Shown: positions 3,469-4,885 of the stretch, in pieces | How the letters are laid out: each line of letters begins with the position of its first letter | How positions within the stretch are numbered: position 1 is the stretch's first letter | Assembly: GCF_006345805.1 (NCBI RefSeq) | Contig: NW_021826789.1 | Coordinates: 1-12,026 of the forward strand | Source of the DNA: Octopus sinensis | Lineage: Eukaryota | DNA: 12,026 nt | Direction of reading: 5' to 3' | Position numbers: made by a program

Positions 3469-4885
3469 ATAAGAAATATTAAAATACTAAGTCTCTCTAA
3501 AAGAGAACAACGGCAGCGTTCCCGGAAAATATTAGTTATCGCCATACTAATATGGCATTCTTATAAAAATAAGAATAAAGCTGACCGCTTATTAGCTCCA
3601 TGAGGCCATCGCCTTAGTTAGCTATTTGATACACAAACTGTATCCATATAACCTTTGAACAAGGGAGGTCAGTCGCTCCACACTACTACTTGGCCGGCAG
3701 CTACAGACGCGTTTCGGGGTATTGCCCCTTTTCAATGCAGCGTAGCCAAACCAGTAGGTGTCGCTTCCGTCGCTTCCGACATTCTCTGTTCAAAGGTTTT
3801 ATTTACCTAGCTTCGGTGGAATACATCCACTTGTTTTCAATAATATAAATATTAAAATTACTAAGTCTCTCTAAAAGAGAACAACGGCAGCGTTCCCGCG
3901 AAAAAATATTAGTTATCGCCATACTAATATGGCATTCTTATAAAAATAAGAATAAAGCTGACCGCTTATTAGCTCCATGAGGCCATCGCCTTAAGTTAGC
4001 TATTTGATACACATGGAGCTAATAAGCGGTCAGCTTTATTCTTATTTTTATAAGCAGGAGAGCCTTGCGACACTCCGTGAACCATGTACCCAACGCCGAT
4101 CTTCGATAGAAGCAGGATTGTCGTCCACCGAAACTGGTGAACTTGGGAAACATCCATTTCGCCAGCGGAGACCAAACCCGTTCACCATCCGTTCACACCA
4201 CAAACGCAAACACCCACTAACCCCCACATACATATTATACGATAGGATGGTTTCCGCACTGTTTCCGCCTTCCAAATTTCCTTATAAGGCATTGATCGGA
4301 TCGGAAGTATAGTAGAAAACATTTATCCAAGATACCGCCCAGTGAGACTGAACCTGGAACCACGTGGGTGCAAAGAGAAATTCTTAACCAAATAGCCATA
4401 TTTTCGCCAATGAGTAGAAACAAAAGAGAGAATTCCAAAGATATTACAGAGTTAAACATTGTCTTCTCTCATTCGTTTTCGGCTTCATATTGAGCTTATT
4501 GTCAGCATGGGATGAACATAGAAACAAAAGGTTAATTGTGGAACGGGACTGCAAGGACATCCATGCAAATGCGGAGGCGATTGTATGGTTTCCGGGCAGG
4601 TTTCGCAATTACCGTATTGGTACACCGTTGCCATGATATATCGTCAATATTTCCAAACAGAAAGACAGCGAGTCGGCAGAATCGTTTGTACGCCGGACAA
4701 AATGCCTAAAGGCCTTTCGTCCGTCTTTACGTTCTGAGTTCAAATTTTGTCGAGTGCAACTCTGCCTTTCATCCTTTCGTGGCCGGTAAAGTACCAGTTG
4801 AGCACAGGGGTCAATGTATTCGACATATCCCTTAGCCGTAATTGCTGACTTCCTGCCCAAATTTGAAATCAATATTTCCAAACAT

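What the first reader, a model, noticed from the sequence alone, without database searches (positions are those of the whole stretch)
3696..3747. Hammerhead ribozyme with a compensatory U3-A8 core and a dimerisation-type stem III
Seen: all three stems, GAAA and GUC are intact, but CUGAnGA reads UUGAAAA. Established: positions 3 and 8 form a tertiary Watson-Crick pair, so C3U plus G8A is compensatory. Minimal palindromic stem III (ACGCGU) marks Penelope/retrozyme hammerheads that cleave as dimers. Inference: a functional variant that CUGAnGA pattern searches would miss, cleaving between 3706 and 3705.
Basis: partly seen in the sequence, partly recalled or inferred. Interest (0 to 1): 0.88.

Follow-up and report, generated by a model that had tools for sequence, protein, structure and literature searches.

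The report
Hammerhead ribozyme with swapped core pair
A small self-cutting RNA motif of the kind carried by animal retrozyme and Penelope-type repeats sits here with one core base pair swapped from C-G to U-A, a variant reported once before, so it is a real but fairly ordinary find.

Summary
On the minus strand, 3747..3696 reads as a complete type I hammerhead (HHR): 6-bp helix I, core UUGAAAA, 4-bp G-C helix II, GAAA, palindrome ACGCGU, C17 at 3706, cut site 3706|3705. My descriptor found this one locus in the window. It found none in 300 dinucleotide shuffles, and 0 and 3 loose hits (0 strict) in two 38-Mb simulations. Two copies are predicted to fold into the classic double hammerhead through ACGCGU.

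The motif caps a long hairpin inside a 1.45-unit partial tandem of about 375 bp. That tandem has an adjacent inverted fragment and abuts (TA)n, a layout typical of retrozyme or Penelope-like (PLE) repeats.

The U3-A8 swap is not new. Cervera and de la Peña (2014) described it in Schistosoma PLE hammerheads, with about 1,300 hits.

Rfam hammerhead models do not detect the motif, even at E≤10 on 64 bases. The locus holds only one HHR, so it cannot dimerise in cis. No animal genome collection was available, so copy consensus, covariation and cleavage remain untested.

Verdict: a new member of a known kind, of modest interest.

The parts
3696..3747 (-). Type I hammerhead ribozyme motif with a U3-A8 core. 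It includes the outer helix GGC (3747-3745) / GCC (3698-3696).
   Evidence: Read directly. It is the only descriptor hit in the window, with 0 hits in 300 of 300 shuffles. The minimum-energy fold keeps helices I and II.
3736..3741 (-). Helix I, 5' strand GCUGCA. It pairs with 3700-3705.
3729..3735 (-). Core box UUGAAAA (positions 3-9). U3 is 3735 and A8 is 3730.
   Evidence: The consensus CUGANGA is quoted in PMC7151607.
3716..3728 (-). Helix II: GGGG / CCCC with loop 2 CAAUA. The G10.1-C11.1 pair is kept.
3707..3715 (-). G12 A13 A14 followed by the palindrome ACGCGU (3712-3707). This is A15.1, the CGCG loop and U16.1; in a dimer it forms a 6-bp intermolecular helix III.
   Evidence: RNAcofold dimers in 52-, 72- and 157-nt contexts all pair the two palindromes, at -6.1 kcal/mol relative to two monomers.
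3700..3706 (-). C17 (3706), the predicted scissile bond 3706|3705, and the helix I 3' strand UGUAGC (3705-3700).
   Evidence: Hammerhead numbering applied.
3646..3802 (-). Long imperfect hairpin that extends helix I, closed by AACCUUUGAACA / UGUUCAAAGGUU. The hammerhead sits at its tip.
   Evidence: The fold of 3640-3810 gives -60.9 kcal/mol, z -4.53, with 0 of 200 shuffles as stable. A 16-nt inverted match is seen.
3636..3839 (-). Segment b: the unique part of the repeat unit, holding the hammerhead hairpin. It is single copy in the window.
   Evidence: Self-BLAST. The fold gives z -3.71, with 0 of 200 shuffles as stable.
3466..3635 (-). Segment a, copy 1. In the sense orientation it lies downstream of b and abuts (TA)n.
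3840..4013 (-). Segment a, copy 2. In the sense orientation it lies upstream of b. Together with b it makes one period of 378 nt (3636-4013).
   Evidence: 95.4% identity over 175 columns. For 3480-3635 against 3854-4013: 154 matches, 2 mismatches that a 1-nt indel explains, and 4 gap columns.
4012..4054 (+). Inverted fragment: the exact reverse complement of 3937-3979 (and of 3560-3602). It forms a hairpin with a 43-bp stem together with copy 2 of segment a.
   Evidence: Inverted repeats I1 and I2, 43 nt, 100% complementary. There is a sub-threshold MIR844 match at 3934-4054, 56 bits against a gathering score of 70.
3432..3468 (.). (TA)n microsatellite flanking the element's sense-strand 3' end.
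   Evidence: Tandem Repeats Finder. PLE insertion bias for microsatellites, including (TA)n, is stated in passages of PMC8557442.

Best explanation
This is a dispersed, roughly 1.45-unit copy of a small non-coding, hammerhead-bearing repeat of the metazoan non-LTR retrozyme / Penelope-like (pLTR-derived) kind.

Shown directly:
- The minus strand encodes a canonical-architecture type I hammerhead.
- Its one tertiary core pair is U3-A8 instead of C3-G8.

Inferred mechanism:
- In transcripts that carry two or more units (tandem master copies), or between two RNAs, two hammerheads pair through the palindrome ACGCGU. This gives a double hammerhead with a 6-bp helix III and swapped helices I.
- Each active site cuts after C17 (3706|3705 here), leaving a 2',3'-cyclic phosphate and a 5'-OH.
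- Unit-length RNAs of about 375 nt are released, can be circularised, and are copied back into DNA by a PLE-type reverse transcriptase.
- More-than-unit-length copying gives the a-b-a layout with an inverted fragment next to a (TA)n tract.
- U3-A8 was most likely already present in the RNA template rather than acquired by decay at this locus.
- This locus, with its single hammerhead, is probably a dead-end insertion.
For: - Motif anatomy: complete, and 11 of 13 core positions are canonical. The two exceptions are the two partners of the known 3-8 pair, changed so that pairing is kept.
- Chance: 1 locus in the window; 0 of 300 shuffles with any hit; at most 3 loose and 0 strict hits in 2 x 38 Mb of simulated sequence.
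- Architecture matches the published description of canonical metazoan type I hammerheads: helix I 6 bp, helix II 4 bp, helix III 1-2 bp capped by a 2-4 nt palindromic loop, G10.1-C11.1 kept (passages of PMC4209133).
- Dimer: the minimum-energy dimer is the double hammerhead in 3 of 3 contexts tried, at -6.1 kcal/mol against two monomers.
- Element context:
  - The period is about 374-378 nt, within the 150-450 bp range given for animal retrozymes (PMC7229834).
  - There is a partial tandem with an adjacent inverted fragment, and it abuts (TA)n. This is the layout described for PLE insertions (PMC8557442; PMC11167929).
  - The circularised period folds to -117.2 kcal/mol, z -4.81, with 0 of 200 shuffles as stable.
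- Youth: the two copies of segment a show no substitution over about 150 aligned bases, only short indels. Two post-insertion substitutions in the 52-nt hammerhead, landing exactly on positions 3 and 8, are therefore unlikely.
- Precedent:
  - A natural U3-A8 covariation with about 1,300 hits was reported in S. mansoni.
  - 3-8 pair swaps partly restore cleavage.
  - 'Solo' monomers of retrozymes are common in vertebrate genomes (bioRxiv 10.64898/2026.07.22.740005).
Against: - No Rfam hammerhead family matches. There were 0 matches at gathering score on the window, and no hammerhead among 114 matches at E<=10. On 131 bases there were 0 matches. On 64 bases the only match was an unrelated 12-bit one.
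- Only one copy of the hammerhead and of segment b exists in the window, so there is no alignment, no covariation and no consensus.
- The 52-nt fold alone is not exceptional: z -1.66, with 11 of 200 shuffles as stable.
- The a-b-a layout has other readings, such as a later local duplication. In that case the identity of the two a copies would not date the insertion.
- Published PLE hammerheads cleave poorly in vitro even as dimers. In one PLE, cleavage was not needed for insertion in vitro.
- No reverse-transcriptase or endonuclease ORF adjoins the element.
Confidence: 0.6

Rival explanations
1. It is a dead relic. The hammerhead descends from a canonical C3-G8 ribozyme, and the two transitions are neutral decay (or the U3-A8 form is catalytically dead). 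The motif then does nothing, either here or in its family.
For: - Both changes are transitions, the commonest substitution type.
- Rfam models reject the motif.
- It is a single copy with a single hammerhead.
- PLE-type hammerheads are weak in vitro.
Against: - If two substitutions fell at random in the 52-nt motif, the chance that they hit exactly positions 3 and 8 with the pair-preserving bases is about 1e-4 (my arithmetic: 1/1326 position pairs times 1/9 to 1/4 for the bases).
- All other core positions and all helices are intact.
- The flanking repeat copies show no substitutions over about 150 bases.
- The same covariation recurs naturally about 1,300 times in another animal.
Confidence: 0.22
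2. It is a chance hammerhead-like pattern at the tip of an unrelated palindromic (MITE-like or foldback) repeat, with no ribozyme ancestry.
For: - The motif sits in a 157-nt hairpin bounded by 12-nt inverted ends.
- Hammerhead-like loci with one or two free core mismatches do arise by chance: 6 loci in 40 block shuffles.
Against: - With the 3-8 pair rule, 0 of 300 shuffles gave a hit, and 0 strict hits occurred in 2 x 38 Mb of simulation.
- Features outside the descriptor also fit: G10.1-C11.1, an internal loop right after a 6-bp helix I, and a palindromic helix III.
- The hairpin arms are not simple sequence copies of each other.
Confidence: 0.04
3. It is a co-opted single-copy hammerhead acting at this locus, for example in processing a host transcript, as proposed for some intronic hammerheads in vertebrates.
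For: The motif is intact and looks young. No direct evidence was found.
Against: - A 1-bp helix III makes a lone copy a poor cis-cleaver. Axolotl monomers with such a helix III cut 6% in one hour (PMC7229834).
- The neighbourhood is repeats and microsatellites, with no recognisable gene.
Confidence: 0.03

Closest known systems
Canonical metazoan type I hammerheads of non-LTR retrozymes / satellite-like tandem repeats (newt and axolotl, Schistosoma Sm-alpha, coral, mussel)
   Same: - Type I topology, helix I 6 bp, helix II 4 bp, and helix III of one pair capped by a palindromic tetraloop.
- Predicted action as a dimer.
- A repeat unit of a few hundred bp with low GC (41% here) and a highly self-paired RNA.
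   Different: - The core pair is U3-A8 instead of C3-G8.
- Only 1.45 units with one hammerhead at this locus, not an array.
- Not detected by Rfam hammerhead models.
U3-A8 covariant minimal hammerheads in pLTRs of Schistosoma mansoni Cercyon-type Penelope-like elements (Cervera and de la Peña 2014, PMC4209133)
   Same: The same pair-preserving swap at core positions 3 and 8, a link to PLE-type repeats, and mostly single dispersed motifs.
   Different: [quoted passage not shown]
- The motif here has the canonical layout, with a palindromic tetraloop and no extra nucleotide.
- The host is different. I could not see that paper's figures or supplements.
Hammerheads in pseudo-LTRs of autonomous Penelope-like elements (Penelope/Poseidon, Neptune and others)
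   Same: Short palindromic helix III, dimer logic, partial-tandem plus inverted-copy insertion layout, and a microsatellite neighbourhood.
   Different: No reverse-transcriptase or GIY-YIG ORF adjoins this element. The only GIY-YIG-like remnant lies 5 kb away on the other strand.

Membership tests
Hammerhead ribozyme (type I) | Conserved core C3 U4 G5 A6 N7 G8 A9 ... G12 A13 A14 A15.1 ... U16.1 H17 | tested here: inconclusive
   Eleven of the 13 defined positions are canonical. Positions 3 and 8 are U and A. This departs from the letter of the consensus but keeps the 3-8 pair, and the same state is reported in natural PLE hammerheads.
Hammerhead ribozyme (type I) | Three helices around the core, with the ends in helix I and G10.1-C11.1 at the base of helix II | tested here: met
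   Helix I 6 bp, helix II 4 bp with G10.1-C11.1, and helix III as one pair plus a tetraloop.
Hammerhead ribozyme (type I) | Scores above threshold with curated covariance models (Rfam hammerhead families) | tested here: not met
   No hammerhead family matched at gathering score or at E<=10 on 12,026, 131 or 64 bases. No positive control with a known PLE-type hammerhead could be run.
Hammerhead ribozyme (type I) | Site-specific self-cleavage after H17 | not testable with these tools
   This needs transcription and cleavage assays or RNA end mapping.
Hammerhead ribozyme (type I) | Tertiary contact between the helix I internal loop and loop 2 | not testable with these tools
   An internal loop follows the 6-bp helix I, and loop 2 is CAAUA. 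I recall a UAC bulge and a CAAAUA-type loop 2 in the Schistosoma crystal construct. That is memory only, not a test.
Dimer-type (double) hammerhead of PLEs and retrozymes | Helix III of 1-2 bp capped by a 2-4 nt palindromic loop, so that two copies form an extended helix III | tested here: met
   ACGCGU at 3712-3707. The minimum-energy dimer pairs the two palindromes in 3 of 3 contexts, at -6.1 kcal/mol. This is a prediction only.
Metazoan non-LTR retrozyme | Head-to-tail tandem repeats of about 150-450 bp, each unit with a type I hammerhead | tested here: inconclusive
   The period is about 374-378 bp but only 1.45 units are present, with one hammerhead. It could be a solo derivative. Arrays elsewhere in the genome could not be searched.
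Metazoan non-LTR retrozyme | Expression as unit-length linear and circular RNA | not testable with these tools
   No transcriptome was available. The circular fold is unusually stable (z -4.81), which is compatible but not specific.
Autonomous Penelope-like element (hammerhead in the pLTR) | Adjacent ORF with PLE reverse transcriptase and GIY-YIG endonuclease | tested here: not met
   No ORF of 70 aa or more with a family match lies in or next to 3466-4054. The GIY-YIG-like remnant at 8958-9293(+) is 5 kb away on the other strand.

The most novel reading that the evidence does not exclude
U3-A8 is the consensus state of a whole, recently active family of retrozyme-like circular-RNA elements in this (probably molluscan) genome. 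That would mean a tertiary-stabilised, canonical-architecture hammerhead has naturally exchanged its catalytic C3-G8 pair and still supports the element's life cycle as a dimer. It would give a natural system for studying how the base at position 8, whose 2'-OH is the proposed general acid, tunes cleavage and ligation.
Probability: 0.4. Interest if true: 0.45.

Novelty: new member of a known kind. Interest (0 to 1): 0.3.

Why it matters
It shows that consensus-string searches and the current Rfam models can miss intact-looking hammerheads whose 3-8 pair has covaried, so counts of animal hammerheads and retrozymes are probably underestimates. If the family consensus is U3-A8, this would extend the covariation from the minimal PLE motifs of a flatworm to a canonical-layout hammerhead in another phylum. 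That would add natural support for the 3-8 pair seen in crystal structures. It opens no new question: both the variant and the element type are already described.

Tried and rejected
- **Rfam.** Four cmscan runs found no hammerhead family: gathering score on the window, then E<=10 on the window, on 131 bases and on 64 bases. I could not run a positive control with a known PLE-type hammerhead. I did not test a C3-G8 revertant, because that would mean sending a changed sequence.
- **Other copies in the window.**
  - Self-BLAST with word size 9 found no second copy of segment b.
  - A descriptor allowing up to 2 core mismatches found no second hammerhead-like locus.
- **Other copies elsewhere.**
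  - No animal genome collection is offered.
  - An exact 30-base search of the bacterial and archaeal genome-contig collection found 0 matches. This shows only that the element is not a prokaryotic contaminant.
- **tRNA-like or Pol III origin.** ARAGORN found 0 genes in the window.
- **Autonomous PLE.** Pfam scans of 7 ORFs gave nothing above cut-off.
- **CpG depletion as a clock.** It was uninformative: the whole window has CpG observed/expected near 1.
- **MITE reading of the 157-nt hairpin.** I considered it and ranked it low, because the arms are structurally paired but are not sequence copies of each other.
- **Host identity.**
  - The repeat at 3023-3420 reminds me of an octopus SINE, from memory only.
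  - A full-text search for a 21-base stretch of it found 0 papers, so the host stays unverified.
- **Literature.**
  - Searched, by listing: 'hammerhead' with 'U3-A8' returned 1 paper. 'Hammerhead' with 'C3-G8' returned 2. 'Hammerhead ribozyme' with 'cephalopod' returned 4, of which 2 were listed, neither about cephalopod hammerheads. 'Hammerhead', 'retrozyme' and 'octopus' returned 3, of which 2 were listed. 'Hammerhead' with 'C3U' or 'G8A' returned nothing relevant to the double mutant. The search located papers that cite Lünse et al.
  - Not held: Przybilski and Hammann 2007 and Lünse et al. 2017. What I say of those two, and of Nelson and Uhlenbeck 2008, comes only from citing passages or from recall.
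  - Read as passages only, never as whole texts: PMC4209133, PMC7229834, PMC8557442, PMC6155905, PMC7151607, PMC3884650, PMC6765202, PMC11167929 and bioRxiv 10.64898/2026.07.22.740005 (abstract, outline and passages).
  - Supplements are closed. The supplementary figures of PMC4209133 (consensus families, activity gels) may show how common U3-A8 is and whether it cleaves.

Full report
**What is there.** On the minus strand, 3747..3696 reads, 5' to 3', as follows:
- GGC, then UAC, then GCUGCA (helix I, 5' strand)
- UUGAAAA (core)
- GGGG-CAAUA-CCCC (helix II and loop 2)
- GAA, then ACGCGU
- C, the predicted cut, then UGUAGC (helix I, 3' strand)
- U, then GCC

In hammerhead numbering:
- Helix I is 6 bp (3741-3736 with 3705-3700, including one G-U).
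- Helix II is four G-C pairs, with G10.1-C11.1 kept.
- G12 A13 A14 and A15.1 are present.
- U16.1 is 3707 and C17 is 3706.
- Only positions 3 (U, 3735) and 8 (A, 3730) depart from CUGANGA.
- Helix III is one A-U pair closing CGCG, so that A15.1 to U16.1 spells the palindrome ACGCGU.

**Is it more than chance?** I wrote a descriptor with these rules: the 3-8 pair as C-G or U-A, helix I of at least 4 bp, helix II of at least 3 bp, loop 2 of 3-8 nt, and a helix III insert that is absent or a Watson-Crick palindrome.
- It found this one locus in the window and nothing in 300 of 300 dinucleotide-preserving shuffles.
- I ran two first-order Markov simulations of 38 Mb each, one trained on the whole window and one on 3470-4900. 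The loose descriptor hit 0 and 3 times. The strict form (helix I at least 6 bp, helix II at least 4 bp) hit 0 and 0 times. That is at most about 1e-3 expected per window.
- A counterpoint: if U3 and A8 count as two free mismatches, look-alikes are not rare. Forty block shuffles gave 0, 2 and 4 loci with 0, 1 and 2 core mismatches. The argument therefore rests on the two changes being precisely the pair-preserving ones.
- The 52-nt fold on its own is unremarkable: -17.3 kcal/mol, z -1.66, with 11 of 200 shuffles as stable.

**Rfam.** No hammerhead family matched in any of four runs:
- At gathering score on the window there were 0 matches in all.
- At E<=10 on the window there were 114 matches, mostly microRNA models on simple repeats, and none was a hammerhead.
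- At E<=10 on 3660-3790 there were 0 matches.
- At E<=10 on 3690-3753 there was one unrelated 12.1-bit match.

This counts against formal membership by curated models. I could not run a positive control.

**Dimer.** RNAcofold of two copies gives, as the minimum-energy structure, the nested double hammerhead. The two ACGCGU palindromes pair with each other, and each helix I forms between the 5' strand of one copy and the 3' strand of the other. This held in 52-, 72- and 157-nt contexts, each 6.1 kcal/mol below two monomers. It is a thermodynamic prediction, not a demonstration.

**Surroundings.**
- The hammerhead caps a long imperfect hairpin (3646-3802) closed by a 12-bp outer helix. The fold of 3640-3810 gives -60.9 kcal/mol, z -4.53, with 0 of 200 shuffles as stable.
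- This segment b (3636-3839) is single copy in the window.
- It is flanked by two direct copies of segment a, at 3466-3635 and 3840-4013. They are 95.4% identical over 175 columns and include a 91-nt exact block at a spacing of 377.
- Over 3480-3635 against 3854-4013 there are 154 matches, 2 mismatches in the first five columns that a 1-nt indel explains, and 4 gap columns. In effect there are no substitutions, only short indels in simple runs.
- Right after copy 2 lies an exact 43-nt inverted fragment (4012-4054, the reverse complement of 3937-3979).
- On the other side the element abuts (TA)n at 3432-3468.
- Read in the hammerhead's sense, the order is: inverted fragment, a, b with the hammerhead, a, (TA)n. 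That is about 1.45 units of a period of 374-378 nt.
- One period folded as a circle gives -117.2 kcal/mol, z -4.81, with 0 of 200 shuffles as stable.
- No ORF with a family match lies in or beside the element, and no tRNA-like gene was found.

**Comparison with the literature** (passages only).
- Cervera and de la Peña 2014 (PMC4209133) describe canonical metazoan type I hammerheads as follows. Helix I is 6 bp and helix II 4 bp. Helix III is 1-2 bp, capped by a 2-4 nt palindromic loop. They are inactive alone and active as dimers. The motif here fits point by point.
[quoted passage not shown] A descriptor with that core retrieved about 1,300 hits, mostly single motifs. It is the only paper in the searchable library holding both 'hammerhead' and 'U3-A8'.
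- PMC3884650 states that the C3-G8 Watson-Crick pair of the full-length structure was confirmed in two independent studies.
- PMC11167929 states that C3G and G8C each abolish cleavage, and that the double mutant partly restores it, also in an Anolis PLE hammerhead. It adds that cleavage was not needed for insertion in vitro.
- PMC7229834 places animal type I hammerheads in tandem repeats of 150-450 bp that are expressed as circular RNAs. It notes that axolotl hammerheads with a one-pair helix III cut poorly as monomers (6% in one hour) and well as dimers.
- PMC8557442 and PMC11167929 describe PLE insertions as partial tandems, often with an adjacent inverted 5'-truncated copy and a bias for microsatellites, including (TA)n.
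- A 2026 preprint argues that animal retrozymes derive from PLE pLTRs and that dispersed 'solo' monomers are common.

**Best reading.** This is a young, dispersed, more-than-unit-length copy of a non-coding retrozyme-like or PLE-derived repeat, whose hammerhead carries U3-A8.
- The two a copies have no substitutions, so two later substitutions falling exactly on the 3-8 partners are improbable. For two random hits in 52 nt, my arithmetic gives about 1e-4.
- The swap was therefore most likely inherited from the template RNA.
- This inference assumes that the a-b-a layout arose at insertion. A later local duplication, or gene conversion between the copies, would weaken it.
- Whether the U3-A8 form cleaves, whether it is the family consensus, and whether arrays exist could not be tested. 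No animal genome, transcriptome or bench assay was available.
- With a single hammerhead, this locus cannot dimerise in cis and is probably inert.

**Rivals.**
- A decayed or inactive relic: about 0.22.
- A chance pattern on a foldback repeat: about 0.04.
- A co-opted local ribozyme: about 0.03.

**Verdict.** This is a new member of a known kind, the U3-A8 variant has been in print since 2014, and the interest is modest at 0.3. The host organism is unverified; my impression that the neighbouring SINE-like repeat is cephalopod comes from memory, and a text search for it found nothing.

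Noticed in passing
3934-4054: A near-perfect hairpin with a 43-bp stem and a 32-nt loop, formed by segment a copy 2 and the inverted fragment. It scores 56 bits on the plant MIR844 model (gathering score 70, E 1.7e-10), which is surely a generic long-hairpin match. It could be a source of small RNAs if transcribed.
   Followed up: partly
8958-9293 (+): A stop-to-stop ORF of 111 aa with a GIY...YIG-like stretch. Pfam finds nothing above cut-off. In the ESM Atlas search, 21 of the 30 named-cluster hits fall in eukaryotic (arthropod) sets where 18-33% of members carry GIY-YIG PF01541, at score 0.95. It is possibly a remnant of a Penelope-like element endonuclease, 5 kb from the hammerhead and on the other strand.
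   Followed up: partly
3023-3420, with a diverged partial copy at 1324-1473: A SINE-like repeat ending in microsatellite sequence. Positions 3053-3214 match 1324-1473 at 72%. ARAGORN calls no tRNA. From memory it resembles an octopus SINE, which I could not verify.
   Followed up: partly
4700-4823 and 8780-8907: Another dispersed repeat family in inverted orientation, 75% identical over 128 nt.
   Followed up: no
9847-10151: A self-palindrome of about 300 nt: 9860-10151 matches its own reverse complement at 89%.
   Followed up: no
9500-9830: A pyrimidine-rich 9-nt tandem repeat (TCCTCTTCC, about 33 copies) with an extreme GC skew of -0.77. It creates long spurious ORFs on both strands.
   Followed up: no
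199-833, 2920-3022, 5157-5573, 6069-6522, 7018-7428, 8354-8732: Very dense (AAT)n, (TA)n and (TATG)n microsatellites that bring GC down to 11-19% in places. They produce dozens of sub-threshold microRNA-model matches in Rfam, which are artefacts of simple sequence.
   Followed up: no
3757-3774: A 9-nt unit (GTCGCTTCC on the plus strand) is duplicated head to tail inside the hammerhead-bearing hairpin arm.
   Followed up: no
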